A DNA stretch of 64,000 nt from Obrimoposthia wandeli. Taxonomy: Eukaryota. The stretch spans positions 496,001-560,000 of the forward strand of contig CDROCS010000496.1 of the NCBI GenBank assembly GCA_977020255.1, written 5' to 3'. Below the pieces are notes generated by a model that was not told the origin of the DNA, made no database searches, and saw only the letters and a list, made by a program, of their open reading frames with translations. A program made the position numbers and the translations under genes. The stretch's first letter is position 1; every line of letters starts with the position of its first letter. This document shows, in pieces, positions 23,431 to 45,042 of this stretch.

Positions 23431-23436
23431 AATAAA
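23431..23436 (+). terminator. Putative LTR polyadenylation signal
   Basis: AATAAA in context ttttgAATAAA, seen in similar context in related LTRs (about 46438, 58813, 60728). Confidence 0.5.
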
Positions 23437-28100: not shown

Positions 28101-31100
28101 GGACAGTTAGCAGCGTCATTAGAGCAGTATAGTGCAGAGAGGAATGAAGATATCAGAGGTGATATGAATTCGGAAACTCCAAGTAGTAAAGATATACTTA
28201 CGGGAATTCTCAGGCAAGTGAAGCCGAAGTTGTTTAAAATGTACAGAGATGAAACAACCGATATAACAGACAATTTGACTAAAGCAGTCAGATCACAGAT
28301 GTCTGCAGTAAAGAGAATGACCGCGAATCATGTATACCATGCATCGATAGATAGATTTTATGACGGTGAAGTTTTAGCGAGATTATGTGGAAACCAGACT
28401 ACAAATAAAAAGTTAATTACAGCAATCACATATCTATGTTTCCAATTGACGGAACGAACGAGCCAACCTCACGAAGTCAAACAAGGAATAAATGAAGCAA
28501 TGTATTTGATCGAGAATGTGTTACAGAGACGAATTGACGAAAATGGAGGTTGGGCAAAATTAAGTGACTACGCTAAAACCATTTTGGAAATGAATGAAGA
28601 CGATGACGAACAATGTCATGAGAATCGTCAAAAGGAAAATAAACAATACCGTCCGAAAGAGAGAAACAATCAACCAAATATGTCCACAACAATGATGATG
28701 ATGATGTTAGTAATGTTTATGGGAATGCAACAGGCATCAGGATTGATAGCATATGACTGTAGCATACCAAAGATGGGACAAAAGTATTCACTGCTTGACA
28801 GCGAAGACTGCCCAGAGTCACAACCGTCAAAACTAGAAGTTCAAGGTGTTGAAAACTACTTTGTGTATCAGGATGTTGATAAAGTACAAGTAGAAGTGAA
28901 AGAATGTTCAATCCATTCAAGTTATCACGAATTCTATTGTGGTCATAGAAGTTTTATGTCAGAAATCACACCTACCACACCGTACAAGGCACATAAGGTT
29001 TTGCCGAGAGATTGCGAAGATGCATTTCGAACGGGAACGATAGAGGTAGACAAGAATTACAAACCTGAAGTAAAAATTGGAGTGAGACGATACGAAACAG
29101 TCACGAGAGTCGGACAACGATGGGCCGATGGATCTTGTGACGGAGGAACAAAAAACGTGCGTGGAACCAAAGTAACCGAGTTAGTAATGGACGTAACTTA
29201 CAAAATCGAATTAAAAACATGGACCGCCAATTTTGATAAAAAGACACAACTAATGATGAAGTATCCAGAATGTAAAATGACAGATACATCTTGTTTTACA
29301 GGCGAATCCACAATTGTGTATAACATAAATCCGAAGCAATGCTCTTTAGTATTTTTGAAAGAGATTAGCTTTAATAAAATAAAAGGATTCCTGTATAATA
29401 AAGATGGAGAAGGATTCCTGTATAATAAAGTTGGAAAAGGATTGCTCAATGAAACAAGACCAATCCCAATGACAAAGACACCTACACTGTTAATGGCAAC
29501 ATCAATAGAAGAAGGATTGATATTTATTAAAAAGAGAAACAAAGCGCGATGCGGAATGACTGTTAGTACTACAAACTATCCAGGAATAGTTTTGTCTAAA
29601 GAAGCAATAGCATTGGCAGAAACCAAGCTAAAACCAAAAGATATGCAGCTACATACGTATTTTAATAATAAAATTGATTTCTATTATCATAAAGGATTGA
29701 TGCAAATGGAACAGTTATATCGAATGATGATTGAAAGAGATTGCCAGCTAAACAAAGAGATCGTGAGAACAAAGTTAGCATTAGCTATTACGAATCCAGA
29801 CATGGTAGCACCATTATTACCCTTGGATGAAGGAGTATTTGCTAAAACCATGGGAGAAGTATTGTATACTTACAAGTGTAATAAAGTAGAGGTACAGTTG
29901 AGAAAAACAAATCGATGTACGAGTGAATTGGCAGTAACGTATAATTTAAAAGATCTTTTTGTTGAACCAATCACGAGAATGTTACTTCCAAAAGACACTC
30001 CAACTAAAGAAATCAGCTGCTCTAATATAATGGCACCTGAATATCAGATGACGAATAATCTATGGATAACGTTACCTGATCGGAAGCCAACGAAAACCCC
30101 AGCGATGATAAGAATGACGAATCTTAAAGGTAAAATGAAATTCCAAGCGGTGGAAAATATGGAGAACGCAGGATTGTACAATGAAAAAGACTTAAAAGCG
30201 GCGTGGAACGAAATAATGTTTCCAGTAAGAAGAGCCAGAGTACTTACGGAGATGGTACATCGAGCATTACCGCCAGGAGCGAGATATGCGAATTTTGATA
30301 TGTTATTGTCGCCAAGTCATTTCAAGGAAGCAGCACATCAGACACTTAGAAAGATGTGGGGGAAATTCCTTGTTTTAGGACAATTATTTTCGGGTATCAT
30401 AGGTATTTATGTTATAATTAAATTTGTGCAGGTAATTATAGCCCAGGTGTTGTCTACGTATAGTTTATACAGGATAACCGGAATCACCTGGCAACTTATA
30501 ATTGGATGTTTTCCATTTTTAGCAAAATATCTAATGCACCATCATCACGAGAACGAGTTGCGAGCCCTCAAGAAGGAACAACACCAAACGAGAACCATGA
30601 TGAGAGAACCAAGAAACTGTCGAGACGATAACGACGACGATAATGATAGTCCAGGAGTATATGCAAAGATACCAGGAAAACCAAAGATTCCGTTACCAGA
30701 CAAGGAAGAAGTGGCGTTAAACCTATACCCAATGAAGGAATTGAAGGAAGAGAAGGAAAAATTCAAGAGAGGCATCTTAATGATAAGATGGCCTAAAGTG
30801 AGCTACAGTGAAATTCCACAAGCAGAGGAAAAAGACAAAAAAGATAATTCCAGAAGAATTCTGAAGTCTAGGATATCAAATGAGAATCCAAATGCTCCAC
30901 CACAAGTAGCAGTAACATTGAACGGAAGAGAATATCTTGCCGAAGTTGATACCGGATCTGCAGTATCAGTACTGAGTAAAGAAATCTTGTCATCAAAAGA
31001 ATTAAGAGAAGTATGTCCTAGAAAACAGACATTTGTTAACGTGAATGGTACAGATGTAGTGTCGGAAGGAACACTGAAATGTTCATTGAATATCGATGGA

Positions 31101-31334
31101 AGAGTATTACAGTTAAATGCTAGAATATTCACAGATTGCGGTAGTCCAGTCATGATTGGGATGGACGTAATACGAATGTTTGAAGGAATAATTATACTAC
31201 CAAACAACAAGAGTTATAAGAATGACAGTTCAGTGAGAGAGATAAAAATGTTGAGAGGACCTATAGTCGAAAAGGAAAAATGCACTACGTTCCGTATGGG
31301 AAGTTCGTACCCAGACAAAAACAGGAAGCGCTAG
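25143..31334 (+). CDS. Polyprotein segment 1: Gag - UBL - AT-hook - Bcl-2-like - Env glycoprotein - aspartic protease 1
   Basis: ORF 25023-31334, first ATG at 25143 (MAQPGA). Capsid-like FLAEYSSCADVQGW..EKC; CYTCKQMGHYSRDC knuckle (26361-26402); VDTGSAVSV...IGMDVI protease (30900-31200). Confidence 0.93.
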   Translation: MAQPGAQAENNAGNNVGDMNAEQLAQALNATLRPNFSGSLQITKFKGDEESICDFLAEYSSCADVQGWNDKEKCVRVQAHLTGLALEVYKHLTEAERLDWPTLENAFIGKLVLGDLAKVNKRLMRERKQKHDEGVNEYAYVLRTLAARAYPRRIMRNQDGNPVAPEAQAAENDRNQNEMAEVLLDIFRGGLKKDIKVLLAVSDTNDFDNAVRKAREIEKNIKNNAALAIYAMTAGDDDKTKVFVNKTEPSNFQNRNYGQNKFEKIDESSNGNRDNFRSRNRDDSRGRNNSESWNRNRDDSRGRNNNDSWNRNRDDSRNRFNRDNSGNRQPWRGDDRNYNANRGERSDSRFGNNAGNSDGRFNNRGSGFESNFRRNDFRGRYDNRQNSRRVQFEDEQNKIDIRGRIMCYTCKQMGHYSRDCTRSKEFGTNRFGNNNFGNNNFGNNYRGYNSPPPWNRGGGYTPQPWRLNNQYTDRQQSPGRYNNYADRQQGAERYNNYVGQQGAERYNNSGRYNNNNVDKTNSRESSPKPKGNFSYVSDDSDRNRETELRREIDFEDSDSKFERMLGIIKDSPHTKMANSSTLSKQEKNLHSREEMNDLMNRILEAYETPIEKTCNAQPMTDHVEAARNATSMENVKKIISEAKETLNQPLDETSEAPEVLAKLQTIKVHRLEEVRAELVKHSHDNLGYKEVPRGLLKGYGRYVQRSNQTGTMKISLRLISGQIIHEKLNVYQTMKTIRKKLAEKLEIDGMNMLFHYKGRSLDDEDVPVEFGYPIGNELEEKIDVITVGRQELVDNEGLTEILNSALEMIKTPIEILDSSSESGDGDVAEAWNKTSTPEPYVTELQDMNLENELTTPVVEVPPEPDIIPIRQDEVTDTANQVRQNETVTQLVGEDEVSEIVDLDSPIWHAAYKDRQAEQMMRQSEEIGHEEGPSQEIQYNGETYDPGENQTEYQYFRRGPGRPRKGESILRNVLTAPQTDEERHLSIGQLAASLEQYSAERNEDIRGDMNSETPSSKDILTGILRQVKPKLFKMYRDETTDITDNLTKAVRSQMSAVKRMTANHVYHASIDRFYDGEVLARLCGNQTTNKKLITAITYLCFQLTERTSQPHEVKQGINEAMYLIENVLQRRIDENGGWAKLSDYAKTILEMNEDDDEQCHENRQKENKQYRPKERNNQPNMSTTMMMMMLVMFMGMQQASGLIAYDCSIPKMGQKYSLLDSEDCPESQPSKLEVQGVENYFVYQDVDKVQVEVKECSIHSSYHEFYCGHRSFMSEITPTTPYKAHKVLPRDCEDAFRTGTIEVDKNYKPEVKIGVRRYETVTRVGQRWADGSCDGGTKNVRGTKVTELVMDVTYKIELKTWTANFDKKTQLMMKYPECKMTDTSCFTGESTIVYNINPKQCSLVFLKEISFNKIKGFLYNKDGEGFLYNKVGKGLLNETRPIPMTKTPTLLMATSIEEGLIFIKKRNKARCGMTVSTTNYPGIVLSKEAIALAETKLKPKDMQLHTYFNNKIDFYYHKGLMQMEQLYRMMIERDCQLNKEIVRTKLALAITNPDMVAPLLPLDEGVFAKTMGEVLYTYKCNKVEVQLRKTNRCTSELAVTYNLKDLFVEPITRMLLPKDTPTKEISCSNIMAPEYQMTNNLWITLPDRKPTKTPAMIRMTNLKGKMKFQAVENMENAGLYNEKDLKAAWNEIMFPVRRARVLTEMVHRALPPGARYANFDMLLSPSHFKEAAHQTLRKMWGKFLVLGQLFSGIIGIYVIIKFVQVIIAQVLSTYSLYRITGITWQLIIGCFPFLAKYLMHHHHENELRALKKEQHQTRTMMREPRNCRDDNDDDNDSPGVYAKIPGKPKIPLPDKEEVALNLYPMKELKEEKEKFKRGILMIRWPKVSYSEIPQAEEKDKKDNSRRILKSRISNENPNAPPQVAVTLNGREYLAEVDTGSAVSVLSKEILSSKELREVCPRKQTFVNVNGTDVVSEGTLKCSLNIDGRVLQLNARIFTDCGSPVMIGMDVIRMFEGIIILPNNKSYKNDSSVREIKMLRGPIVEKEKCTTFRMGSSYPDKNRKR
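27276..27506 (+). other. Ubiquitin/SUMO-like domain within segment 1
   Basis: MKISLRLISGQIIHEKLNVYQTMKTIRKKLAEKLEIDGMNMLFHYKGRSLDDEDVPVEFG...KIDVITV; beta-grasp pattern with SUMO-like F-x-Y-x-G...D-x-P...IDV; no terminal diGly. Confidence 0.7.
28188..28590 (+). other. Bcl-2-like helical domain within segment 1
   Basis: BH2-like RRIDENGGWAKL (NGGW at 28542-53); degenerate BH1-like GNQTTNKKLITAITYLCFQL at Bcl-2-like spacing. Confidence 0.55.
28680..30540 (+). other. Chuvirus-like (class III, gB-type) envelope glycoprotein within segment 1
   Basis: Signal-like MSTTMMMMMLVMFMGMQQASG then LIAYDC..YSLLDSEDC; ERDCQLNKEIVRTKLALAITNPD..GEVLYTYKC.KVEV..R.T.RC..EL.V, as in chuviral G proteins; C-terminal TM FLVLGQLFSGIIGIYVIIKFVQVII. 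Confidence 0.85.
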
Positions 31335-32090
31335 CAAAGTCGATACTTCACTACAAAAATGTAAATTTCGGACCACAAGATACGACGAGGAGAAAAATAA
31401 CATACGTAAATCTGTCAGAAAGGGATCCCATGAGATTCGAGAGAAAGAGACGAAATATATTAGAACAGTACTATTCAAAAGGAATGGCACGTAAAATGGC
31501 AAGATCAGGTTTAGAAATGTTAAACGCGACAAGCAGTTATGGTCAGGAGATAGTAGTACGATGCGTATGGTGTAGAGTAAAGTTTAGAGAATGGGAACAG
31601 AATGAAAACCCAATGAGACGTCATAAAGAGATGCACCAAATTGTCCATTTCTTTTGAAACTGAAAACGTCAAACGTACCAGAAATCCAAACGGGAAAAGC
31701 ACCCGATTTCGATTACAGTGACGGGATTCCAAAAGGAGAATCAGCTCTAATAACAGGAAGAGTAATAACGAATAGTCGAATTGAAGATATATTCGAAGTT
31801 ATGCGAGAAGTGAACGAATGTGACGAACAATATCGAGAAGTAACTTTCGAAGATCCAAGACTTAAAAAATTGGCAAAAAAGGAATTTTTGCTATAAAAAG
31901 GGATGGTAACGACGTAATTAAATGCCACAAGTGTAAAAAAGAACGAATTATCGACAGATACACTCTTGAGCTACCTAAGAAAATTTTACATCATGAATTT
32001 TGCGAATTTTGTACTTGTAAAAACAAAATAAAGCAAAAAGAACAGAAAACCGAATGTATAATCGAATACCAAATCACACGGAAAGAGATT
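31280..32090 (+). CDS. Polyprotein segment 2: two BIR domains (split across three frames)
   Basis: BIR1 KMARSGL...VVRCVWC..F.EWEQNENPMRRHKEMH[P]NCPFL, completed by one-base repair at about 31637. BIR2 RLKKLAK[K]GIFAIKRDGNDVIKCHKC...ILHHEFCEF, completed by one-base repair at about 31878; this frame runs into ORF 32091. Confidence 0.8.
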
Positions 32091-34496
32091 TTGGCTCAAC
32101 AAGACACACCGGTAGTGTCATTCGTGAGAAGGTTATATCCAAAAGAAGCAGAAAGAATCAGAGAATTGGTAGAATTAAAAATAAAAACTACGCGAAACGG
32201 ATATGGATCGATTTTTGAATTACTGCGAGATAAAGATGACAGTACAATTGAAACAAAAGAGAAAGAGTACATAAATGAACTAGAATACGTACTAGAAGAT
32301 CCGGAATGCGCAGTTTGCATGGTTAACAAAATAGAAGTTGCCTTTCTACCATGCGGACATGTAAGAACATGTCGGAGATGTGCGAATGAAATGGTATCAT
32401 GTCCGATTTGTCGAAGAATAATAGATCGACAAGTGAGAAACATTAGATTTCACTATCCAAACATAGGAAGTGGACGGACAGAGTGTAATAATTCGATAAA
32501 TACAATATACCATATGGGAAACATAAATGGAGCACAGCGACCAGCAGCTATCATTAGAGTAAATAATTTAAGAGTAAAAGCTTTAATTGATACAGGTGCT
32601 GTAGCTTCGATAGTAAGTGAAGACTGTTTGACAGAGGAACAGAAACGAACAATGGCAGAACCAGATGAATTCTTGGTATCGGTCAATGGAGACCCTGTAA
32701 AAGTGACGGGAATATTACCATGTACATTTATAATTGGACGTAATACGATCACTATACCAGTTAGAATCATGAAAGAATGTCCTGAACCTACAATTTTAGG
32801 AATGGATGTATTATCACAACTCAAAGGGATAAGTATTGATTTACAGGATCCAAGATTGAAGGATAGTACATCAAACAGACAAATAAACCAAATTGATGTA
32901 ATTATAGAGAATCCTATAAAAATCGGTAAAAGATCACAATTTCTCATTCAAGGTCACACATTATCAGAAGATAAAGGACCAGTTGTGTTCGAACCATCAC
33001 GAGATTTCATAGAGAAATACGAACTACCAGTTGTGAGTACGGTATGCCTGATCGAAAACCACAAAATACCAGTTAGACTGATGAATACAACCAACAATGA
33101 CATTCTATTATACAGAGGAATGAGGTTGGGAAAGATAGCACAGATGGAGAATTCCACTGTATGCGCTATGAAACTCGATAAAGATACGAATGATTACGAA
33201 GAAATAGTAATCCAATCAGAAAGACTAACAACTAGAGAAAAGAAACAATTACTTGATCTAATACATAAATTTCCGAAAGTAATTGCAAAAAATCCATATG
33301 ACATAGGAGAAACACCTGTCATAAAACATACAATACCACTGACAGAAGACAAAGTAGTCAGAAGAAGACCATATCGAGTACCATTACAATTACAAGATGA
33401 AGTAAAAAGTCAGATTGAAGATATGTCTAAAACAGGAGTAATTAGACCGAGTTTTTCGCCATTCTCAGCACCTGTAGTGTTGGTAAAAAAGAAGGATGGG
33501 AAAATGAGATTCTGTATAGATTTCAGAGAACTGAACAAGATCACAAGAAAAGATGTGTATCCATTACCTAGAATCGAAGAGATGCTCGATAAATTGGGTA
33601 ATTCAGATTATTTTACAACATTGGATTTGCAGAGTGGATACTGGCAAATCGAGATAGAGGAAGAGGATAAACACAAAACAGCCTTTTCTTGCGGAGATGG
33701 ATTATACGAATGCGAAAAGATGCCATTCGGACTGACAGGAGCTCCAGCAACATTTCAGCGTTGCATGAATTTTGTACTCGCATCGTGTGCAAATACGATG
33801 GTTTATATCGATGACATAATAATATTTTCGAAAACGTTCGAAGAACATTTAAAAAATCTTGAAGTTGTATTTAAAAGACTGGAAAACGCTAAATTAAAAG
33901 TTAAACCTACAAAATGCGTATGGGCTAAAGAGCGAGTAACATTTTTAGGACATATAGTATCGAAAGAAGGCATTCGACCTGATCCAGCAAAGATCGAGAA
34001 AGTAAAAGCGCATTTAGCGCCAAAGACTGTTAAAGAGATACAGAGTTTTTTAGGTCTTGCAAATTATTATAGACGATTTGTTGAACATTTTTCAGATATA
34101 GCAACACCATTGAGAAAGTTGACGAGAAAAGATGAGAAGTTCATATGGGGAGAAGAAGCCCAACAAGCGTTCGAGCATTTAAAAGAAAGACTGATAAAAG
34201 CACCAATATTAGCGTTTCCAGATATAAACCGACAATTCATACTAATGACAGATGCAAGTAACTATGCTGTAGGAGCAGTATTGGGACAAGAGGATGACGA
34301 AGGAAGAGAACACGTCATTGCGTATGCGAGTAGAGGATTAAACAGAGCCGAAAGAGGATACTCTGTTATCGAAAAGGAATGTCTAGCCATAGTGTATTCA
34401 TGTAGACAGTACAGACACTATTTGCTAGGACAAAAGTATTCCTGTATACAGATCACAAACCACTACAGTTCTTGTATAAACATAGAGATGAGATGA
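32091..34496 (+). CDS. Polyprotein segment 3: IAP-type RING - aspartic protease 2 - RT - RNase H (N-part)
   Basis: CAVCMVNKIEVAFLPCGHVRTCRRCANEMVSCPICR (32307-32411); LIDTGAVAS..ILGMDVL; RFCIDFRELN..YPLPRI, MPFGL..AP.TFQ, YIDD (33804-15); MTDASNYAVGAVL, YSVIEKECLA. Confidence 0.97.
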   Translation: MAQQDTPVVSFVRRLYPKEAERIRELVELKIKTTRNGYGSIFELLRDKDDSTIETKEKEYINELEYVLEDPECAVCMVNKIEVAFLPCGHVRTCRRCANEMVSCPICRRIIDRQVRNIRFHYPNIGSGRTECNNSINTIYHMGNINGAQRPAAIIRVNNLRVKALIDTGAVASIVSEDCLTEEQKRTMAEPDEFLVSVNGDPVKVTGILPCTFIIGRNTITIPVRIMKECPEPTILGMDVLSQLKGISIDLQDPRLKDSTSNRQINQIDVIIENPIKIGKRSQFLIQGHTLSEDKGPVVFEPSRDFIEKYELPVVSTVCLIENHKIPVRLMNTTNNDILLYRGMRLGKIAQMENSTVCAMKLDKDTNDYEEIVIQSERLTTREKKQLLDLIHKFPKVIAKNPYDIGETPVIKHTIPLTEDKVVRRRPYRVPLQLQDEVKSQIEDMSKTGVIRPSFSPFSAPVVLVKKKDGKMRFCIDFRELNKITRKDVYPLPRIEEMLDKLGNSDYFTTLDLQSGYWQIEIEEEDKHKTAFSCGDGLYECEKMPFGLTGAPATFQRCMNFVLASCANTMVYIDDIIIFSKTFEEHLKNLEVVFKRLENAKLKVKPTKCVWAKERVTFLGHIVSKEGIRPDPAKIEKVKAHLAPKTVKEIQSFLGLANYYRRFVEHFSDIATPLRKLTRKDEKFIWGEEAQQAFEHLKERLIKAPILAFPDINRQFILMTDASNYAVGAVLGQEDDEGREHVIAYASRGLNRAERGYSVIEKECLAIVYSCRQYRHYLLGQKYSCIQITNHYSSCINIEMR

Positions 34497-35737
34497 GTAG
34501 ATTAAACAGATGGTTTCTAAAATTGGCCGAATTCGATCTAGAAATCCGTTATAGAACCGGAAAGTCGAACGGCAACGCAGATTGTTTGTCGAGATTGACA
34601 AATGTAGACGAGAAAGGAAACATAATTCCAGAAGAAGATGAAACCAATGACCAAAAAGGAGAAGCAAATCTACTGACGATTTTGCTAAAGACGGGTAAAA
34701 TAGACAAAGAGATCATCAAAGAACAGAAAGAAGATGAAGAACTGAGTCTAATCAAAGAATTGTTGGTGAAAGGAGATCTAAACGATGAAATGACGAAAAA
34801 TACTCAATAAAAAGAAGGAATCTTGTATATTGTCAATAATGTCGGAAAGATAGTAGTAGTAATTCCGAAGTCATTGAAAACAGCAGTGATGATCCAGTAT
34901 CACGACGGAACACTAGGAGGACATCTGTCAGGGCGAAAGACAATAGCCAGAATCAAAGAGAAGTACCATTGGGATGGTATGGAAGACGACATAAAACAAT
35001 GGTGTAAACAATGTAAAGTATGTTTAACCAGAAAAGACACCGGAACTCGTACTAAAGTTCCACTGAAACCAATGCCAGTTCCCTTGGCACCAATGGAATT
35101 CACAGCGATGGATATATTGGGACCATTGAGAGAATCAAGTAAAGGAAACAAGTATGTCATAGTATTTACGGATTACATGACGAGATGGGTAGAAGCATAT
35201 CCCATGCAGAACCAGAAAGCTGAAACAATAGCGCAAATCTTAGTGGAAGAGATAATATTTCGATACGGAGTGCCTAGAAAGTTGTTAACGGATCAAGGTA
35301 AGAACTTCACTGGAGAAGTCATAAAAGCAGTATCGAAGATATTCGGAATCATGAAGTTACAAACTTCACCATATCACCCACAGACAGATGGTCTGGTGGA
35401 AAGGTTTAATAAAACTTTATGTATGATGGTACAATCCTATTGCTCAGACAAGCAAGAGGATTGGGATAAATATTTACCTTCATGTTTATATGCTTACAGG
35501 AATTCAGTTCGAGAGGCGACGGGTCACACACCATTCTATCTGATGTATCTCAGACAGAACAATATGCCAATGGATCTGGAGTGGACCGAGCCAACATCTC
35601 AGTACCTAGAAACTGAACAATACATTGTCGTCATGAAGGAAAGATTACAAGATGCTTGGACCAAAGCCGGATTGAAGTTGAAATTCAATCAAGAAGGTTA
35701 CAAGGAACAATACGACAAAAAAGCAAAAACCACATGA
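34472..35737 (+). CDS. Polyprotein segment 4: RNase H C-part and integrase Zn/core (in-frame TAA at 34808)
   Basis: TDHKPL in shifted frame, NGNADCLSR, YHDGTLGGHL...CKQCKVC, AMDILGPL, LLTDQGKNF, QTDGLVERFNKTL. Confidence 0.95.
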
Positions 35738-35756
35738 ATTTAGAGTCGGAGATCAA

Positions 35757-38700
35757 GTGATGATATTTTATCCAGTCATCGAACCAGGTCTATCGTTTAA
35801 ACTTCATAGACCATACAAAGGACCCTACAAGGTGATCCAGACAACCTCAACAAATTTGAAAGTAATCAACGAAGAGAATCGGAACAAAGAACCGATGATT
35901 GTACATGCAAATCGATGCAAATTAGTACCAAATAAAGATAATGCGTCACGATATGAGTTAAGATCACAGAAATCGAAATCGAATACCAATACCATTAAAC
36001 TTACACGAATGGTAAGTGATCGGAACTACATAAACATGATGACGAGTGGTAGCGAAGAAAAACCAGCGAGAATTGGTATGCTCAGAATGAAGTACCAAGA
36101 GGAAAAGGAAGTAATCCGACACATCGCACCACAAGAGATATTAGAAGAAGACGAAGAGATAATAGTCGTTTTCGAAAAAACACAACCAACAGATGTAGCT
36201 AAAGAAGTCATTGTGAAAGATGCACTAACAAACGAATTTCTGTGCGAACTTAGAGTATCATACTACGACGGAAATACATTAGTCGCAGCACTTTATCAAA
36301 ATTCCAATGTGTTTACGACTGAGAAAGTGATAATCGAAATCACATTGACACCAAACATAGTTGCATGGCAGAACTATGACAGTACTGAAGCAGGACTAGC
36401 CAGTCAGGAAGAAAAAGAACCGGCCGGTGGTCACATACTGCATGGTACACCAAAAAGACTCAAACAAGAATACCACGATGTAATAATGGTATTACGTAAT
36501 TCACATGGGAAAAGAGATATCATGAGAGTCCATTTAATCGACGCTGACACTGAAAAGATAATTTGTCAGATGGACACCAAATACTTTGATGGAAAGACAA
36601 TTGTATGTTGTATACCAGAATCTCACCGATTAGAGACAGATCAAACGGAAGTATCTGTAAGGTTGAGCGTAATAGAAGGATTCCATTCGCCAACCTATCC
36701 GGAAGTGACTAACAATAAAATCATCAAAGCAACGGCAGAATTACGCATTGACAGCGGATACCGGAAGTGGGAAGCTAAAAATAAAAAACCACAAAGAATC
36801 AATATGATCCGAGAACAAGTAACAACTTCAAACCAGCCAAAATATCATGCTGAAATAGTATCATCCGCGCCAAGTGTGATCACATCGATAAACGACGAAA
36901 TTATAATTTTACTAAAAAATCGATGGCCGTCATCAACCGAGATACGAGTAAATTTAATTAATCATGCGAAGACACCGATATCTAAGCTGAATGTTACCTA
37001 TTTCGATGGATTGTCCATCATGGGTAAATTGGAAACAATTGTCATGTGCTATGGAGCACAGTTCCAAGTTGAGATACTTAAAGATAGTGTAATACCGTAT
37101 CCGATTCACAAATACGAAGGGGAAATCAATCCAATTATTCTAACACCTTCATTAATTTCAGTCCAGACAGACATACCAGAATACCCTTCGAGCGAGTCTA
37201 GTGAAGACAGCGAACCAGAAAGTAACGATACAGAATCAACAGAATCCGAAGATAACATAATAGAGCGATTCGGAAGAACCATGGAGATTGAATTCGCTAA
37301 AGAGAGCAGAAAAAGACAAAACATAGAATTCGTGAAACAGAATATACAAGAAAGACGAATTAAATCTGCAGAAGAGACCGAGTCGGAAGAAGACTCAACA
37401 AAGGAACAGACATCAGAGACAAAGATGAATATCTCTCCAGCAATACGAATGCTGAGAGGAAAGAAACTGGCGAAACTATCCAACATCGACGAACAGATAG
37501 AGAAGAGATTAGAAAGACTAAAACTTGAAGAGTCAGAATTAATGCCACCAATGAGTGAGATCATTCCAGGTAAGTTATACCTCGGAAATGTGGAGGATGC
37601 AACAGATGAAAAGAAACTGTTGGAACAAGGAATAACATATGTGATCAACGTTACAATGAATCACAAATCGCAATATCAGACGATCAGAGCTATGACATTA
37701 AGAGTAAAAGACTCAATGGACGCTAATCTTCTCGAATGGTTCGTAGAAACAAACGAAATACTTCACAGAGAACTCCGGAACAAAGGAAAAGTGTTGGTAC
37801 ATTGTCAGAAAGGAATTTCTCGATCAGCAACCCTAGTATTAGCATATCTAATAAAGACTAGACGAATGCAGGTACTAGAAGCGTTAAAATACCTACAGGA
37901 GAGAAGAAGTATTGCAAACCCAAATCTTAATTTTTTGGGACAGTTGGCAAATTACCAACTTCTGTTGCAAGAACAAAGACGGATGGACGACATTCCTGAG
38001 GATCCAAAGGAAAAGAATTTCCTCCAAGCATTATCATTGACCGGGTTATTTTTAGCCGGAGTCGATAAAATTACACAGATAATGCCAAAAGTATTTTTAT
38101 GTCATCCAGGAGATATAGATACTGCTGGATTAAAGTTCCATAGTATCAACCGAGTAATCAACATTGTTGAAGTCGGAAATGAGATAATTAGTCTGTGTCA
38201 AAATACTGAAGATGACACCACTCGATACATACATGCTTCCAATCGAGAGATAAACGATGCACAACAACATTTGACGAAATTGACTCAAACCATCCAAGCT
38301 GAAGTCACAGAAGGAAACGGCGTTCTGATATATCAGAAAAAAGGTACAATGTTAGCGCCTACCATAGGTGTATCCTTGTTGGTAGAGTACCATGGTCACA
38401 CGCCAGAAGAAGCAATGGTCTACATCAAACAGAATAGACCGAATACGGAATTCAAACCGTTACTCGTTCGAGAAATAGAGAAATACACCGAAAAGAGGAA
38501 ACAACAACGAGAAACAAATGAAGCTACAACAACAGCGCCCAGCTTTCAATACCAAAGATTGCTAGCGATAGGCTTGTTAAGTTGTTTAATGCCGATAACG
38601 GGAGCACAGGAGATAGGCTCCAACCACGGAAATAGTTCCTGGTTCAACGAAATCCAAAATTACACCATACAGTACCATACGCCAGCACTGATGATGCTAT

Positions 38701-39809
38701 TAGTGTTGTTAGGACTAATTGATGTGTGGATCATCCGAAAATGTCTTCGATCTATGAGAACCGACAGTAAAAGATTTCAGTTTGTAAAGATGAAAAGACC
38801 AAATGGACCAACGAACAAAGTGCTTGTGTATCTAGACGAAAGGATCGAGGACAACATAGTAAATGAAGCGATATTTTACCCACAAAACAGAATACTGAAT
38901 CAATTTCGAATAGATTACGAAGCTGACCGACAGCGCACACTTGACCGAATATCAACAACATTCGCCGGATGCAAGCGAAGTAAACGAGTTGTAAAGGAAA
39001 TACAAAAAGATGCTGATACAAAAGGACCAACGTATATATTCAACGGAGATGTCATCAAAACACGTGAGTATGGAAGTAAGAGAGTAATAATTGAAACAAT
39101 GGAAGGACATAAAACATGCTTGTCCGCCAAAAATGGATTCGGAAAGTTGACGATACAAGGTAAACCGGTACAGTTGATTATCGGAAGAGATGGAATCGAG
39201 GAGATGTCAAAACAACGACAGACAACAAAACGATACAATCAGAAACAGATATCTCTCAAACGATTGATAATTAAAACCCTTTGTAAAAGGTCGGTCAAGG
39301 CCCTGTGCACCGTTGCACAAGGATTGATTTATGGAGTAGTAATTGGATTGGTACTGCAAGCCATGCCAACCAGTAAAGCCGAATTGATGACACTATCCGA
39401 ATATAATTTACATTTGAGAAATCTAGACAACACCCTAGAAATAATCAAGACATCCCACAGTAAAGCCGTGATGATCATGTGTGTAAAAGGATGTCCAGGA
39501 CGAATGTGTATAGTCCCAGCGACCGAAATGATAACACTTAGTGGACATTATGGAATTAGTGTTGTCACATGTGAAGACTACATATTTGGACAAACTAAAA
39601 TAGTGCTTCTCAGTGACAAGTCCAACCAAAGTGCACACAAATTTAAAATATTAACCATCAAGAGTAAAGGAATACCAGCAGTACGTTACGGTATTCTAGA
39701 ATTGGTTAATCCAATACTCGCACTGATCATTGGATTTATAATATTAATATTACTCATCTTGTTTTGTTGTTCAAAGATAGAGTCGAGATCAAAAAAAGAA
39801 ACGTCATGA
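35757..39809 (+). CDS. Polyprotein segment 5: integrase C-terminus (GPY) - three ~90-aa repeats - DUSP - pseudo-DUSP - two membrane proteins
   Basis: PYKGPYKV..VHANRCK; DUSP 37551-37960 with VLVHCQKGISRSATLVLAYL; second DUSP-fold copy about 38070-38490 with VLIYQKKGTMLA; four hydrophobic segments 38556-39770. Confidence 0.9.
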   Translation: MMIFYPVIEPGLSFKLHRPYKGPYKVIQTTSTNLKVINEENRNKEPMIVHANRCKLVPNKDNASRYELRSQKSKSNTNTIKLTRMVSDRNYINMMTSGSEEKPARIGMLRMKYQEEKEVIRHIAPQEILEEDEEIIVVFEKTQPTDVAKEVIVKDALTNEFLCELRVSYYDGNTLVAALYQNSNVFTTEKVIIEITLTPNIVAWQNYDSTEAGLASQEEKEPAGGHILHGTPKRLKQEYHDVIMVLRNSHGKRDIMRVHLIDADTEKIICQMDTKYFDGKTIVCCIPESHRLETDQTEVSVRLSVIEGFHSPTYPEVTNNKIIKATAELRIDSGYRKWEAKNKKPQRINMIREQVTTSNQPKYHAEIVSSAPSVITSINDEIIILLKNRWPSSTEIRVNLINHAKTPISKLNVTYFDGLSIMGKLETIVMCYGAQFQVEILKDSVIPYPIHKYEGEINPIILTPSLISVQTDIPEYPSSESSEDSEPESNDTESTESEDNIIERFGRTMEIEFAKESRKRQNIEFVKQNIQERRIKSAEETESEEDSTKEQTSETKMNISPAIRMLRGKKLAKLSNIDEQIEKRLERLKLEESELMPPMSEIIPGKLYLGNVEDATDEKKLLEQGITYVINVTMNHKSQYQTIRAMTLRVKDSMDANLLEWFVETNEILHRELRNKGKVLVHCQKGISRSATLVLAYLIKTRRMQVLEALKYLQERRSIANPNLNFLGQLANYQLLLQEQRRMDDIPEDPKEKNFLQALSLTGLFLAGVDKITQIMPKVFLCHPGDIDTAGLKFHSINRVINIVEVGNEIISLCQNTEDDTTRYIHASNREINDAQQHLTKLTQTIQAEVTEGNGVLIYQKKGTMLAPTIGVSLLVEYHGHTPEEAMVYIKQNRPNTEFKPLLVREIEKYTEKRKQQRETNEATTTAPSFQYQRLLAIGLLSCLMPITGAQEIGSNHGNSSWFNEIQNYTIQYHTPALMMLLVLLGLIDVWIIRKCLRSMRTDSKRFQFVKMKRPNGPTNKVLVYLDERIEDNIVNEAIFYPQNRILNQFRIDYEADRQRTLDRISTTFAGCKRSKRVVKEIQKDADTKGPTYIFNGDVIKTREYGSKRVIIETMEGHKTCLSAKNGFGKLTIQGKPVQLIIGRDGIEEMSKQRQTTKRYNQKQISLKRLIIKTLCKRSVKALCTVAQGLIYGVVIGLVLQAMPTSKAELMTLSEYNLHLRNLDNTLEIIKTSHSKAVMIMCVKGCPGRMCIVPATEMITLSGHYGISVVTCEDYIFGQTKIVLLSDKSNQSAHKFKILTIKSKGIPAVRYGILELVNPILALIIGFIILILLILFCCSKIESRSKKETS

Positions 39810-41222
39810 TCTCGCAAGACGAACAGGTCAAATGAATTTACAAAATTCAACACAATTATACCAAGACCACCATTTTTAGACGAACCAGCACCAGAATACC
39901 AGCCAACGATATATGAACACATCGAGGAAAGACCGTACTATATGAGTAATTTGACTTGTTTCATTGAAGTTCCTGAGTTTAGGAATCGAACGATCATAGG
40001 AATCATGCTGATCGCACAAATCACCACTACCAAGGCTAGTTATGAGATCATGATCAGTAAATGGAGACAAGACGTAATACGGGCAATATACATAGAAATT
40101 CCCCTACTAAAAACAAATCACGTAGTAGACATTCATCTACAGACGTCAGCAACTGACAATATCGATCAGAAATTGTATGTCATCCGACAGGTCAGAATAA
40201 AAATCGACCAAAATACACCCGTTTACAATTTAATATTATTGCATCATGAAAGAGTGTTATACCTACGGATAACAATATCAAAGAGGAAGCGGATTATCCA
40301 AAGCATCCGAACAAAGTCATTAATATTACCTAGAGATGAGCGCATCTGGAAAATTGTCGACAGGATTATGATCACAGGTAGACGACGTAAAGCCGTATGG
40401 AATTCCGTTAGGTTATTTTTCAGATTGCTAGAAACTGACAGCGTGACAGTAATGTGTCCCAACCCAGATGGCGTAATCAGATTCGAAATCCAAAGCCAAA
40501 TGTTAGTACCACATTTTAACACAGAATGTCTGTGTAATCGAATTGCCAGTAATTCTACAGAGACCTCGACCATAATCATGATAATAACAGGTGAAATATT
40601 CTACATAACTCTAAGATACCAGAACCGTCGATTTCGCAGATACGGTATAAGTATCAAACCCAGGAAAATCATTCCCAGAAGACCAATTCTAGTCAAAAAG
40701 AAGGCAAAGGTAATCGAAAGTAAACGACATTCCAAGAAACCGACAGTGATCAAAACAAAGACAGAAGCGAAAGAAAAAGAGTCCAATCCCAGAAACCAAA
40801 GTACAATTATTAAGAGGACAAGAGTGAGGGGAACGATCCCACTAGATCCCAAACATCATTTTCCATCCAAAATAATAATACCTGTTCCACCAGAAACAAA
40901 ACACCCAAATCCCCGAATTTTTAGAAAATCGGACATAATACATGGAAACCGATCAAAACCCATGGAAATATCATTCGAACCGACAAACAACAAAATGAAG
41001 TATGATTATAAATCATCAGACAGCGGAATAACAGCGGTCAATGCCCTAATTGGAATGGCCGTAGTGTCAACAGCAGTGGTTTTATTGACAATCGTGTGCG
41101 TAAAAGGCAGTCAAGTATGCCCAGGAATACGACGGAAATGCGAAGGATTGCGATGCTGTGACACACCCATCATGGAGGAAGTGGAATTGCGACCCTTACC
41201 TCCGCCTCCCATCAAGATATGA
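39810..41222 (+). CDS. Polyprotein segment 6: predicted type I membrane protein (same frame as segment 5 past a single TGA)
   Basis: Frame is open from 39810 into ORF 39942-41222; signal-like IIGIMLIAQITTTKA, TM AVNALIGMAVVSTAVVLLTIVCV, tail RPLPPPPIKI*. No family recognised. Confidence 0.7.
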   Translation, partial: SRKTNRSNEFTKFNTIIPRPPFLDEPAPEYQPTIYEHIEERPYYMSNLTCFIEVPEFRNRTIIGIMLIAQITTTKASYEIMISKWRQDVIRAIYIEIPLLKTNHVVDIHLQTSATDNIDQKLYVIRQVRIKIDQNTPVYNLILLHHERVLYLRITISKRKRIIQSIRTKSLILPRDERIWKIVDRIMITGRRRKAVWNSVRLFFRLLETDSVTVMCPNPDGVIRFEIQSQMLVPHFNTECLCNRIASNSTETSTIIMIITGEIFYITLRYQNRRFRRYGISIKPRKIIPRRPILVKKKAKVIESKRHSKKPTVIKTKTEAKEKESNPRNQSTIIKRTRVRGTIPLDPKHHFPSKIIIPVPPETKHPNPRIFRKSDIIHGNRSKPMEISFEPTNNKMKYDYKSSDSGITAVNALIGMAVVSTAVVLLTIVCVKGSQVCPGIRRKCEGLRCCDTPIMEEVELRPLPPPPIKI

Positions 41223-41345
41223 TGAGTCAGAGGAGGTTGTAGATAAATTAGTGTGTGAAATATGTAGAAATATCTAGAAGCGATTGTACAAATAGTAGAA
41301 GTATATAAAACTCATGTGGAAATTAATCATCATCATGTATTTAGA

Positions 41346-41645
41346 ATGGCCGAGGAATGCCCAATATGTTTAGAAGATCTAACCGAACGAAGAACAAGAC
41401 CCGAAACCTGCAACCATTTACACCACGAGGAATGTTTATCGACATGGATCAGAACTTATGGACAGTTCGGACACCCAACATACCCTCGTTGCCCTATATG
41501 CAGAAGACAATTCGCAAGATTCGTCATGTTAGAACCCAACCAAAGGGATGTATATGTACAGGTGGTATTCTGCTGGAAGAATTTCGGAGAGTGTTGGTGT
41601 TATTACTGTTTGTCAGATCGACAAAATCAGACCACTTTTGTGTAA
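41346..41645 (+). CDS. Small RING-H2 protein 1
   Basis: MAEECPIC...TCNHLHHEEC...CPIC plus C-terminal CWKNFGECWCYYC; TATA-like gtatataaaa at 41301. Confidence 0.85.
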   Translation: MAEECPICLEDLTERRTRPETCNHLHHEECLSTWIRTYGQFGHPTYPRCPICRRQFARFVMLEPNQRDVYVQVVFCWKNFGECWCYYCLSDRQNQTTFV

Positions 41646-41705
41646 AGATCACACAACCACCAGTCCTCAATCGAGCCCAAATTCAACATCAACCCTCCCA
41701 CAGTA

Positions 41706-42011
41706 ATGTCTGGAGAATGTTCCATCTGCTACGAGAGCATCGTGGACTTCTACACCAAGCCCAACAACTGCGACCACTTTTTCCACGTCGAATGCCTCGA
41801 GACGTGGATTCCCATCGCAAACAGCAACAACCCACTCGACTTCCCAACCTGCCCGATGTGCAGAGCGACCTTCTCAGTACACTACGTGTACAACCAAGAC
41901 AGCCTCCAAGCAGTGGTACCCATCGTACACTGCTGGAAAACCATCTGCGATTGCTGGTGCTCGTTCTGCGTGGAGGAGCGAAGCACAGGCCAGCCCAATC
42001 CCCAACAATAA
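41706..42011 (+). CDS. Small RING-H2 protein 2
   Basis: MSGECSIC...NCDHFFHVEC...CPMC plus CWKTICDCWCSFC. Confidence 0.88.
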   Translation: MSGECSICYESIVDFYTKPNNCDHFFHVECLETWIPIANSNNPLDFPTCPMCRATFSVHYVYNQDSLQAVVPIVHCWKTICDCWCSFCVEERSTGQPNPQQ

Positions 42012-42345
42012 TCGAAGGTAACTTTCTGACTTGAACGTGACATCATGAACTACCCTGTGTATCGCAAACCGCGATAAATTAGCTACCATAATTGTAATCA
42101 TAATTATATAATCTTGTGAACTGTAAATTGACCATTACCATTTTTATGTATGATGTTTAACTGAAATTGTAATTATTATACTGAATTTCTAAAAAAGACA
42201 ATTTTTATGCTTAGTGTGAATGCGTAAACATGCCTAAAATCGAAACAAAACTCGGTAGGATTAGATAACTAAGGATTCATTTTGAAATAGAATTTAAATT
42301 AACGATGAGAACGGTGAACCCCAAATTGAAAGGAGTCATTTTCTC

Positions 42346-42882
42346 ATGCAGATGTTGTGCTCCGTATGCATGGAGAAGATTTGGGCGGTATCGGCATCCC
42401 CTGTCGGCTGCCGTCACAAATTTCACGAGGAGTGCCTCTATTTGTGGACCAAGGTTCGAACCTCCGGACAAATCACCTGTCCACTGTGCCGGACACCCTT
42501 CGCCAAATGGACACTCCAGAGCCGCGGAAGACACAAAGGCACCCGATCGCCTGCCAGCTGCATTGGTGGCATCCATTGCCAATGCTACGTGTGTCTCGCA
42601 CGCCGGCGCGACACACAACTGGGCGTCCGCGAGAGATGGCGGTCTAGTCGAGACTGCCACTCGTGGTTCCAGGCCAGACGGCACTGGATTGAAAACCATA
42701 CCATGAACAGGCAGCACTTCGACCTGTTCATCGACAGCCCGCATTTGACCCGGAGCCAGCAACTCCATTTGTACAACGGGGACAGTCCGTCCTTTCCCGA
42801 CCTTCCCCTGGAGCAGGTTCTACGCTACCTGACCAGTCGGAACCAGCCGACAATAACAATTGACCTCACACATGAAAACTGA
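42346..42882 (+). CDS. RING-H2 protein 3 with C-terminal SIM-like motif
   Basis: CSVC...GCRHKFHEEC...CPLC, CIGGIHCQCYVC, C-terminal PTITIDLTHEN*. Confidence 0.85.
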   Translation: MQMLCSVCMEKIWAVSASPVGCRHKFHEECLYLWTKVRTSGQITCPLCRTPFAKWTLQSRGRHKGTRSPASCIGGIHCQCYVCLARRRDTQLGVRERWRSSRDCHSWFQARRHWIENHTMNRQHFDLFIDSPHLTRSQQLHLYNGDSPSFPDLPLEQVLRYLTSRNQPTITIDLTHEN

Positions 42883-43152: not shown

Positions 43153-45042
43153 TGTTAAGGTTGAGAATTAAGAAAATTAAATAATTTAGTTGATTAAATA
43201 CTAAAATAAAAATCCTTGAAAGCAAGGTCGAAAATTAAATTAAAATAATAATTTAAGTTTTAGAATTAAAATTAGTGAAATTTAGGGTAAAATTAGGAGG
43301 ACCACGAAGGTCGTGTATTATGCGAAAATGTATAAAAGTTTAAAGTTAATTAACCAAAGGGACAAAAATAAGAAATTAATTAAAAGAAAAACGGTTAATT
43401 AAAACCGTCAATCAAGAAAGAAAAAGGTAAGCACATTTTGAGTGCAACGAGATTAATTGATTTTTTAGCAACAGAAACTTTCAAATTTCGAGACCAGCTG
43501 TCATTGATTGACAGAATCCGGAGACTCGTATAGAAACCTTCAGTAATCACGGTAAACAGCTGTCATTTGATTGACACGACTGTTCCTATATAAGGAAACG
43601 AAAATTAACCACAATCACAAATACGGGATTCAACTCCCTGACCACAAACAGAACCATTAAGTTCTCGTGTCCAAAAAGCTGATTGTATAAAGGTAAACGT
43701 TCCAGTCAGTAAAGATAATTGATTTTATTATTGTATTAAAGGTAAACGTTCCAGTCAGTGAAGATAATTGATTGTTAATAAGCTCTGTTTCGAAGAAGAT
43801 TCCCAGTGAAGATAATTGATTGTTAATAAGCTCTGTTTCGAAGAAGATTCCCAGTGAAGATAATTGATTGTTAATAAGCTCTGTTTCGAAGAAGATTCCC
43901 AGTGAAGATAATTGATTGTTAATAAGCTCTGTTTCGAAGAAGATTCCCAGTGAAGATAATTGATTGTTAATAAGCTCTACTTCGAAGAAGATTCCCAGTG
44001 AAGATAATTGATTGTTAATAAGCTCTGTTTCGAAGACGATTCCGCCAGGCTCGCAAGCACCACATACGGACCCTACACCGGACGTCCCACGAGTTGCTGT
44101 AACTGGTAAGAACACAGACTAGGTTCATTCATTGCCCCTAGTAGGCAATTAGGATATATTCATTACCCCTAGTTGGTAATTCTATATTTTCTTAATAATA
44201 CACAAATTCATTGCCCCTAGCTGGTAATTAGGATCACTGCCTCTTTACCACAATCATTGCCCCTAGTTGGTAATTAGGATCGGACCTTTATTCATTGTCC
44301 CCAGCGACAATTAGGAAACCTACCAGACGTTTTTTCCCGTAAGATTCATTGTCCCTAGCTGGCAATTAGGTTCATTCATTGCCCCTAGTTGGTAATTCGG
44401 ATAAATATTCATTGTCCCTAGTAGACAATTCGGTAAGATTCATTGTCCACTAGCTGACAATTCGGTTCGTTCATTGTCCGTAGTTGACAATTAGGAGTAA
44501 GTTTTCATTGTCATCTTGACAATTAGGTTTTTAGGAGATCCCTTGTCTACAGTAGACAATTCGGGTCAAACACACAGAGAGAGTAAGGAACAAAGAAACA
44601 TTTAGCTAGAGATCAGAAGTAGGAGCGAAGAAATTTAAGAGAGTTGCGTTATAGATTAACCAACCTAAGTAAGAAGACTAAACCTAAGAAACTTAATCAC
44701 CTGAACGTAAAATCGATACGTGGTTCATCCCCACTTCTTGTAGAGACTTACAGAAGTCCTTTAGGAATTTTATCATACTTTTTAGAAATACGTACATAAA
44801 CGTATTGTGGTGTTAGTTACGTGAATTTTGAATAAACAATTTCCTACATTAGAACAAGTTGTTTTTACACCCTTCAGACTAAGAGACATCAAATCAAATA
44901 CCTTCAGATAGTACAAGAGATTAGGCAACCATAACACTAAGTAGGCCACGACCAACTTTAAGACCTGCTTCTAATCGAACTCACGTTGGGGTCCTCCGCA
45001 CATAAGAGGCTCTATACCAAGTTTCGTATAGAAACCCCAACT
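43153..45042 (+). repeat. 3' LTR (1,890 bp)
   Basis: Copy of 21754-23642 at offset 21399/21400; ends ...CCCCAACT followed by TSD CTAT. Confidence 0.97.

What the first reader, a model, noticed from the sequence alone, without database searches (positions are those of the whole stretch)
37551..38490. Tandem active DUSP and pseudophosphatase fused downstream of integrase
Seen: first domain has the intact HCQKGISRS P-loop, general-acid region VKDSMDA and C-terminal NPNLNFLGQL typical of MKP-like DUSPs. Second has the same layout (ITQIMPKVFL...EEAMVYIKQNRP) but IYQKKGTMLA, lacking catalytic Cys and Arg. Known: MKPs inactivate JNK/p38; STYX-type dead domains act as substrate traps; poxvirus VH1 and baculovirus PTP are virion-packaged. 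Inference: damping of stress-kinase or immune signalling.
Basis: partly seen in the sequence, partly recalled or inferred. Interest (0 to 1): 0.75.

Follow-up and report, generated by a model that had tools for sequence, protein, structure and literature searches.

The report
Retrotransposon carrying live and dead phosphatases
A young, 23-kb, envelope-carrying retrotransposon in an animal genome has a signalling phosphatase with an intact active site, and a second dead copy of the same fold, built into the protein that ends its integrase, which suggests it may damp the host's stress-kinase response the way large DNA viruses do.

Summary
Positions 37542-37976 encode a dual-specificity phosphatase domain (D1) with Asp, His, Cys and Arg intact; its best solved match is DUSP10/MKP5. 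Positions 38058-38504 encode a second, diverged domain (D2) that keeps the fold's scaffold but none of six catalytic residues. Both lie in a 1375-codon frame that begins with the integrase C-terminal part of a 23.3-kb Ty3/gypsy element with 99.9% identical LTRs, a gB-type env between gag and pol, and Ubl-, Bcl-2-like, BIR and RING cargo: a Burro-like layout. Related elements also run on past integrase, with other cargo; none of those examined has a phosphatase. Best reading: D1 is a captured MKP-type catalytic domain that dephosphorylates a host MAP kinase, probably JNK; D2 is a retained non-catalytic module. Substrate, expression and activity are inferred, not shown; the tree does not place D1 firmly. 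Three possibly IPT/TIG-like repeats precede D1. My ten paper searches found no phosphatase reported in an LTR element.

The parts
21754..23642 (+). 5' LTR (begins TGTT, ends AACA)
   Evidence: 99.89% identical to the 3' LTR over 1889 columns, 1 mismatch and 1 gap; ends
43153..45042 (+). 3' LTR (terminal base differs from the 5' LTR)
21750..21753 (+). 4-bp target-site duplication CTAT, repeated at 45043-45046
23651..23669 (+). primer-binding-site-like sequence starting TGG
   Evidence: sequence just after the 5' LTR; likeness to an elongator tRNA-Met 3' end is recalled, not tested
24771..31334 (+). gag (Retrotrans_gag weak, zf-CCHC), ubiquitin-like and Bcl-2-like segments, gB-type env, aspartic protease
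   Evidence: Monjiviricetes_fusion E 1.3e-94, zf-CCHC 1.2e-5, protease 6.8e-6; Retrotrans_gag 0.0049; ubiquitin 0.004 and Bcl-2 0.047; top PDB hit a viral Bcl-2, E 0.077. Ubl and Bcl-2 are weak
31226..31657 (+). BIR domain, broken by a frame change near 31.6 kb
   Evidence: Pfam BIR E 5.5e-7
31866..34496 (+). RING, second protease, reverse transcriptase (YIDD), RNase H; broken near 34.4 kb and by a stop near 34.8 kb
34811..35737 (+). integrase zinc finger and core
   Evidence: Integrase_H2C2 3.9e-19, rve 5.8e-13
35682..39809 (+). 1375-codon Pol extension: integrase C-terminal part, three beta-rich repeats, acidic linker, D1, D2, four hydrophobic segments
35718..36035 (+). integrase C-terminal (GPY/F) part
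   Evidence: 36-49% identity to the in-frame continuation of six related Pol proteins, E down to 8e-25
36096..37181 (+). three ~110-residue beta-rich repeats, possibly IPT/TIG-like
   Evidence: 20-27% identity to each other; ESM Atlas TIG 0.91-0.92 with low shared-feature counts; fold model pLDDT 45, best Z 4.5 to a plexin Ig-like domain; no Pfam hit. A lead only
37542..37976 (+). D1: dual-specificity phosphatase domain, catalytic residues intact, MKP-type C-terminal motif
38058..38504 (+). D2: pseudophosphatase domain, scaffold kept, catalytic residues lost
38559..39782 (+). signal-like segment (38559-38597) and membrane-spanning segments (38679-38735, 39321-39362, 39693-39782)
   Evidence: hydropathy scan; signal-peptide role is inference
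39810..41222 (+). unknown ORF with a C-terminal hydrophobic segment
   Evidence: no Pfam family; hydropathy
41268..42882 (+). three short RING-finger ORFs
   Evidence: zf-RING_2 E 5.4e-10, 6.5e-9, 1.2e-7

Best explanation
An env-carrying, Burro-like Ty3/gypsy element captured the catalytic domain of a host MAP-kinase phosphatase and keeps it in the C-terminal extension of Pol, between the integrase C-terminal part and an internal signal-like segment. Shown: the domains, their order and frame, intact catalytic residues in D1, selective loss of them in D2. Inferred: the extension is made with Pol (or from a sub-genomic RNA), D1-D2 stays on the cytosolic side, is cut free or left membrane-tethered by the element's proteases or signal peptidase, and D1 dephosphorylates a host stress MAP kinase, most likely JNK, which MKP catalytic domains dock without their kinase-binding domain. 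This would work with the BIR, RING and Bcl-2-like cargo to keep the cell alive during replication or cell-to-cell spread. D2 is a folded non-catalytic module (binding or regulation), not a phosphate trap.
For: D1 keeps 34 of 41 family-conserved columns including Asp, His, Cys, Gly, Ser, Arg, Ser. The 13 best of 76 PDB matches are DUSP10, followed by DUSP4, 1, 2 and 16. The best single-domain hit of the representative search (P0023, 48%) is a rhodanese plus DSPc protein. The motif PN[FL][NS]F[LM]GQL, which D1 has, occurs in 45 of 193 homologous domains: 29 carry a rhodanese-like domain and the other 16 fall in the two MKP clades of the tree (read from the tree by eye). The MKP7 and MKP5 catalytic domains alone bind and dephosphorylate JNK1 through this segment (PMC4802042, passages). 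D1 and D2 are identical in 19 of 41 conserved columns against 8 of 92 variable ones (p 2e-6), D2 keeps 30 of 42 hydrophobic core columns but 0 of 6 catalytic residues against 20 of 35 others (p 0.02). D1 and D2 have no introns and share the element's base make-up (A 0.39, GC3 0.35; RT 0.385 and 0.29). Five of the six closest RT relatives that reach the GPY/F motif continue in frame for 334-449 residues, and locus L001 has a protease and ankyrin repeats in the same slot. Contigs of all four runs laid cover the phosphatase region.
Against: No activity, substrate or expression was measured. D1 has no rhodanese/kinase-binding domain, which MKP5 needs for p38 (PMC4802042). D1 has Leu at the MKP5 Y435 / MKP7 Y271 site, where 43 of the 45 motif-bearing homologs have Tyr or Phe and where mutation abolishes JNK binding by MKP7 (PMC9676401, passages); P0023 also has Leu. 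The best tree puts D1 outside both MKP clades, without starred support; grouping it with them is not rejected (AU p 0.27 and 0.28). D2 is not closer to D1 than to other domains (D1 ranks 114th by identity), so duplication is not shown. This copy's pol is broken in several places. Within the extension 6 of 10 listed differences from other copies change the residue; only 2 fall in D2 (both silent) and none of those shown in D1. A baculovirus phosphatase with an MKP-like C-terminal motif promotes rather than blocks apoptosis (PMC5923475, passages).
Confidence: 0.55

Rival explanations
1. D1 is an active phosphatase, but its substrate is not a MAP kinase: it acts on the element's own Gag, integrase or env tail, or on another host protein, to time particle assembly or uncoating, as poxvirus VH1 does for virion proteins (recalled).
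For: No kinase-binding domain, Leu at the Y435 site, tree placement outside the MKP clades, and fusion to Pol, which would bring it into the particle.
Against: The MKP-type docking motif is kept exactly as in an MKP homolog; relatives replicate without any phosphatase (0 of 120 RT-search proteins and 0 of 80 loci); the other cargo is aimed at host signalling.
Confidence: 0.2
2. One reading: D2 is a STYX-type substrate trap that holds phosphorylated MAPKs and so adds to D1's effect.
For: D2 keeps the fold scaffold and lacks the catalytic Cys.
Against: D2 has also lost the Arg, the general-acid Asp and the P-loop serines, and its docking segment reads PNTEFKPLL instead of PNLNFLGQL. STYX is not among its 26 PDB matches at E up to 10.
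Confidence: 0.08
3. Passenger cargo: a captured host cDNA piece that is kept open only because the membrane protein downstream must stay in frame; D2 is simply further decayed.
For: No domain-level dN/dS was obtained; 6 of 10 listed differences in the extension are non-synonymous; the cargo in this slot varies freely between relatives.
Against: D1 is only 48% identical to its best homolog yet keeps every catalytic residue; D2's retained residues are concentrated in structural columns (p 2e-6); the base make-up is fully that of the element.
Confidence: 0.12
4. Assembly chimera or a host gene inserted into this one copy.
For: No host assembly is held; no single contig spans the element; three of the four runs are one sample and may be the source of the window.
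Against: One uninterrupted frame from the integrase C-terminal part to the membrane segments, no introns, matched LTRs and target-site duplication; very many slightly different contigs lie over the region, and a run of a second study also covers it.
Confidence: 0.03

Closest known systems
Burro / GYPSM1 giant Ty3/gypsy elements of planarians (as reviewed in PMC6431247, passages)
   Same: Env between gag and pol; ubiquitin-like, Bcl-2-like, BIR and RING cargo in a similar order; tandem repeats near the 5' end. By eye, the env here resembles the Schmidtea errantivirus env row shown in a supplement of PMC13524379.
   Different: 23.3 kb rather than over 30 kb; no MATH or ankyrin hit here; a phosphatase pair after integrase, while the review names no phosphatase (0 occurrences). 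The primary Burro paper could not be read, so its figures may list domains I did not see.
GAG-ENV-POL HSV/gB-type errantiviruses of Nematoda, Bryozoa and Platyhelminthes (PMC13524379: abstract, section 5 part 1, passages, supplement search)
   Same: Gene order and env type.
   Different: No 'phosphatase', 'DUSP', 'BIR' or 'RING' in its main text, and no 'phosphatase', 'DUSP' or the D1 P-loop motif in 7 supplements held as text.
MAP-kinase phosphatases DUSP10/MKP5 and DUSP16/MKP7
   Same: Catalytic domain sequence (E 3.6e-25 to DUSP10), P-loop, LNFL docking segment matching MKP5 L449.
   Different: No rhodanese/kinase-binding domain; Leu at the Y435 site; Lys two residues after the Cys (3 of 188 P-loops among the hits); embedded in a Pol polyprotein with a dead partner.
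Viral phosphatases: baculovirus PTP2 (PMC5923475, passages); poxvirus VH1, baculovirus PTP, bracovirus PTPs (recalled)
   Same: A mobile element carrying a cysteine phosphatase, in PTP2 with an MKP-like C-terminal motif.
   Different: Those are stand-alone genes of large DNA viruses; PTP2 is pro-apoptotic and its substrate is unknown.
Ginger1 transposases with OTU or Ulp1 domains after a gypsy-like integrase (PMC2836005, passages)
   Same: A host-type enzyme fused C-terminal to the GPY/F motif.
   Different: DNA transposons; cargo is a ubiquitin or SUMO protease; 'phosphatase' does not occur in that text.
STYX / MK-STYX pseudophosphatases and the D1-D2 layout of receptor PTPs (recalled)
   Same: A dead phosphatase-fold domain; an active domain followed by a dead one. 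Cellular tandem active-plus-dead DSP proteins also occur among the hits (for example P0024, P0071, P0079).
   Different: D2 has lost the whole catalytic set, not the Cys alone, and shows no special likeness to STYX or to those cellular tandems.

Membership tests
Dual-specificity phosphatase catalytic domain (D1) | Pfam DSPc above the curated cut-off | tested here: met
   121.6 bits against 33.5
Dual-specificity phosphatase catalytic domain (D1) | HCX5R(S/T) P-loop and upstream general-acid Asp | tested here: met
   D57, H87, C88, R94, S95 in columns conserved in 94-98% of 195 homologous domains
Dual-specificity phosphatase catalytic domain (D1) | Measured phosphatase activity | not testable with these tools
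   needs an assay
MAP-kinase phosphatases (MKP) | N-terminal rhodanese-like kinase-binding domain | tested here: not met
   No Pfam hit in the ORF; a profile that finds 54 of 164 hit proteins finds nothing in it. D1 is therefore not filed as an MKP, only as MKP-like
MAP-kinase phosphatases (MKP) | FXF-type docking segment after the conserved PN | tested here: met
   PNLNFLGQL; 45 of 193 homologs share the pattern, all rhodanese-bearing or in MKP clades; role from PMC4802042
MAP-kinase phosphatases (MKP) | Aromatic residue at the MKP5 Y435 site | tested here: not met
   Leu in D1; Tyr or Phe in 43 of 45 motif-bearing homologs; role from PMC9676401
MAP-kinase phosphatases (MKP) | Phylogenetic placement inside an MKP clade | tested here: inconclusive
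   Best tree outside, no starred support; AU p 0.27 and 0.28 (73 of 197 rows, chosen by me)
STYX-type trap (D2) | Cys replaced while the Arg and the rest of the P-loop are kept (definition recalled) | tested here: not met
   0 of 6 catalytic residues kept
DSP-fold pseudophosphatase (D2) | Homology over the whole domain without Cys and Arg | tested here: met
   DSPc E 6.9e-7 (below cut-off), own profile E 1.4e-12; no usable structure model
Ty3/gypsy (Metaviridae) LTR element | LTRs, target-site duplication, gag, and PR-RT-RH-IN order with GPY/F motif | tested here: met
Burro-type giant elements | gB-type env between gag and pol | tested here: met
   PF24664 E 1.3e-94 in the gag ORF
Burro-type giant elements | Ubl, Bcl-2, BIR and RING cargo | tested here: inconclusive
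   BIR and RING pass cut-offs; Ubl and Bcl-2 are weak
Burro-type giant elements | Total length over 30 kb | tested here: not met
   23,289 bases
Burro-type giant elements | RT or env phylogeny with named Burro copies | not tested
   no Burro sequence was available to the tools; env likeness by eye only
IPT/TIG domain (three repeats) | Profile or fold match | tested here: inconclusive
   Atlas 0.91-0.92, 155-165 shared features; no Pfam or PDB profile hit; model pLDDT 45, Foldseek none at E 0.001, best Z 4.5

The most novel reading that the evidence does not exclude
This clade of env-carrying retroelements uses the end of Pol as an exchangeable slot for signalling inhibitors, and this family has filled it with a full virus-style counter-defence cassette: a JNK phosphatase, a dead partner that targets or tunes it, and three IPT/TIG repeats acting as decoys for Rel/NFAT- or BCAP-type dimerisation domains, all delivered with the particle. 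A relative fills the same slot with ankyrin repeats, which may be IkB-like. Such elements would behave like complex invertebrate retroviruses that disarm MAPK, NF-kB and apoptosis pathways, and their cargo would map which pathways restrict retroelements in these animals.
Probability: 0.25. Interest if true: 0.85.

Novelty: new variant of a known kind. Interest (0 to 1): 0.62.

Why it matters
Host-derived phosphatases are known from large DNA viruses; I found none reported in an LTR retroelement (within the held library). If D1 is a working MAPK phosphatase, stress-kinase signalling is a barrier that invertebrate retroelements pay to overcome, and it can be tested with one small recombinant domain. 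The variable slot after integrase also gives a way to read host defence pathways from what different families have captured.

Tried and rejected
Structure of D1-D2 without an alignment: pLDDT 38, unusable. D1 with D2 as a complex: no verdict, score 0.00, no evidence either way. Element-borne relatives of the phosphatases: none among 12 longer proteins, none among the best 150 of 21,433 representative hits (no Pol match in 164 proteins), none from the extension search (756-2407 residues only), none in viral contigs, 0 of 80 metagenome loci (only L001 is close; the rest are 30-43% integrase relatives, many too short) and 0 of 120 RT-search proteins. These are weak blanks, as animal repeats are poorly covered. 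No RNA holder was listed. No host genome is held, so copies could not be compared one by one. Summed contig depth is not a copy number and was not used as one; the runs were found with the phosphatase region. TIG fold: Foldseek found nothing at E 0.001 and the wide search gave Z up to 4.5, too low to rank plexin, BCAP-DBB, Rel or NFAT domains. D2 as a duplicate of D1: not shown. Earlier findings of the scan: none on this sequence or genome; those concern other genes. The primary Burro paper was not held.

Full report
Observation. D1 (37542-37976) scores 121.6 bits on Pfam DSPc, E 2.5e-35. D2 (38058-38504) scores 29.6 bits, E 6.9e-7, below the cut-off of 33.5 but over nearly the whole profile. 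A profile built from 195 homologous domains, without D1 and D2, finds both in the six frames of the window (E 1.7e-52 and 1.4e-12) and nothing else below E 1.

Setting. The frame belongs to an LTR element at 21754-45042. Its LTRs are 99.89% identical over 1889 columns (1 mismatch, 1 gap), the terminal base also differs, and CTAT flanks both ends, so the insertion is very young. The order is gag with a zinc knuckle, weak ubiquitin-like and Bcl-2-like segments, a gB-type env (PF24664, E 1.3e-94), protease, BIR, RING, second protease, RT, RNase H, integrase, the phosphatase frame, an unknown membrane ORF and three RING ORFs. This copy is broken near 31.6, 34.4, 34.8 and 35.7 kb, with a further frame change near 31.9 kb; contigs of other copies are mixed at several of these places, and I cannot tell assembly error from mutation. 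Three runs of one sample each laid over 500,000 contig records on the element, most 90-99% alike, and a run of a second study laid 92; all four cover the phosphatase bins. This points to a large family that carries the cassette, but it is no copy count, and the first three runs may be the window's own source.

Fusion to integrase. The first 105 or so residues of the phosphatase frame are the integrase C-terminal part with its GPY/F motif: they align at 36-49% identity to the in-frame continuation of six related Pol proteins. The closest RT relatives (57-61% identity) share the habit. Of the six among the best eight that reach the motif, five go on for 334-449 residues and one ends after 26. 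In those five a hydrophobic, signal-like segment follows 71-143 residues after the motif. In locus L001 (62% integrase identity) it follows after 697 residues, with a protease and ankyrin repeats in between, and here after 911, with three repeats, an acidic linker, D1 and D2 in between. The stretch between integrase and the first hydrophobic segment is thus a variable cargo slot. No phosphatase was found in 120 RT-search proteins or 80 metagenome loci, though few of these are close or long enough to tell.

D1. It keeps 34 of 41 columns conserved among homologs, including the general-acid Asp and His-Cys-X5-Arg-Ser. Its best solved matches are DUSP10, then DUSP4, 1, 2 and 16; named hits among the representatives include DUSP10-like proteins, and the best single-domain hit, P0023, has a rhodanese domain. 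The segment PNLNFLGQL fits a pattern found in 45 of 193 homologous domains (2 gapped rows dropped); 29 of the 45 have a rhodanese-like domain and the other 16 lie in the two MKP clades of the tree; 26 rhodanese-bearing rows lack the pattern. In MKP7 and MKP5 this segment docks JNK1, and the kinase-binding domain is not needed for JNK (PMC4802042, passages), which explains how a bare catalytic domain could be useful. Against this: there is no rhodanese domain; D1 has Leu where 43 of those 45 have Tyr or Phe, a site needed for JNK binding in MKP7 (PMC9676401, passages); and in a tree of 73 of the 197 rows D1 falls outside both MKP clades, without starred support, while grouping it with P0023 or the DUSP10-side core is not rejected (AU p 0.27, 0.28). 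I call it MKP-like, not an MKP.

D2. It is 21% identical to D1. The identities are concentrated in conserved columns (19 of 41 against 8 of 92, p 2e-6), 30 of 42 core columns stay hydrophobic (38% background), and none of six catalytic residues survives while 20 of 35 other conserved ones do (p 0.02). That is the pattern of a domain kept for its fold after losing catalysis, not of even decay. It has lost the Arg and the docking segment as well, so a STYX-type phosphate trap is unlikely; an adaptor or regulator of D1 fits better (inference). Whether D2 arose from D1 is not shown: D1 ranks only 114th among the rows by identity to D2.

Selection. Of the 40 difference rows that one search showed (952 were not shown), 34 lie in four ORFs; 21 of 34 are silent against 33% expected for transitions (p 5e-4), so the lineage was under purifying selection overall. 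In the phosphatase frame only 4 of 10 are silent; the 2 in D2 are silent and none shown lies in D1. There is no domain-level result. D1 and D2 have no introns and have the A-rich make-up of the element, which suggests long residence.

Neighbouring repeats. Three repeats of about 110 residues (36096-37181) precede D1. I judged them IPT/TIG-like by eye; the Atlas returned TIG clusters at 0.91-0.92 with low shared-feature counts. Pfam and PDB profiles found nothing; the model is poor (pLDDT 45) and its best match is a plexin Ig-like domain at Z 4.5, rmsd 3.6 over 77 residues, with BCAP-DBB, Rel and NFAT domains at 3.6-3.7 among many unrelated rows. This is a lead only.

Mechanism. Most likely (0.55) D1 is a working phosphatase for a host stress MAP kinase, probably JNK, made as part of Pol on the cytosolic side of an internal signal-like segment, and acting with BIR, RING and Bcl-2-like cargo to keep the cell alive. 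Rivals: a substrate among the element's own or other host proteins (0.2), passenger cargo (0.12), D2 as a trap (0.08), artefact (0.03). Processing, packaging, substrate and direction of effect are all inferred; baculovirus PTP2, with a similar motif, is pro-apoptotic (PMC5923475, passages).

Known and new. The element works like the planarian Burro elements: env between gag and pol, with Ubl, BCL2, BIR and RING cargo (PMC6431247, passages), and has the GAG-ENV-POL gB-type order described in PMC13524379 (abstract, section 5 part 1, passages, supplement search). It is shorter than Burro and I could not test membership by phylogeny. Neither text names a phosphatase. Ginger1 transposases give a precedent for enzymes fused after the GPY/F motif (PMC2836005, passages). 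Searches combining retrotransposon and phosphatase terms found no such report (no papers; listings only, none on the point by title or abstract start). The primary Burro paper and Repbase entries could not be seen and may list such a domain. Verdict: a real feature, a new variant of a known kind, interest 0.62.

Noticed in passing
window 36096-37181: Three diverged ~110-residue beta-rich repeats between the integrase C-terminal part and D1, possibly IPT/TIG-like.
   Followed up: partly
L001 1-11518: Related element (62% integrase identity) whose Pol runs on into a second protease, ankyrin repeats and membrane segments, followed by an RNase T-type exonuclease ORF, a second ORF that looks similar by eye, and a weak ubiquitin-like ORF.
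   Followed up: partly
window 28080-28730: Weak Bcl-2-like segment ending just before the hydrophobic stretch at the start of env, which could serve as its membrane anchor (inference).
   Followed up: partly
window 30900-32800: Two aspartic protease domains, one ending the gag-env ORF and one before RT, with a BIR and RING (IAP-like) module between them.
   Followed up: partly
window 41268-42882: Three short RING-finger ORFs just before the 3' LTR, in a stretch richer in G+C (0.45) than the rest of the element.
   Followed up: partly
window 39810-41222: 470-codon ORF with a C-terminal hydrophobic segment and no Pfam or relative match.
   Followed up: partly
window 22261-24744: 48-nt tandem array inside each LTR, and 20-, 49- and 51-nt arrays in the 5' leader.
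   Followed up: no
window 23642-23669: The primer-binding-like site starts 8 bases after the LTR end, further than usual (own knowledge).
   Followed up: no
window 52101-54333: Element with 55-nt inverted ends holding two in-frame ORFs split by one stop (52519-54045); looks like a DNA transposon, no Pfam hit.
   Followed up: partly
window 20425-20566 and 58862-58997: Short pieces 76% like the LTR ends, probably older relatives.
   Followed up: no
P0024, P0052, P0060, P0071, P0079, P0134: Cellular proteins with an active DSP domain followed by a dead one; a parallel layout, with no sign of kinship to D1-D2.
   Followed up: partly
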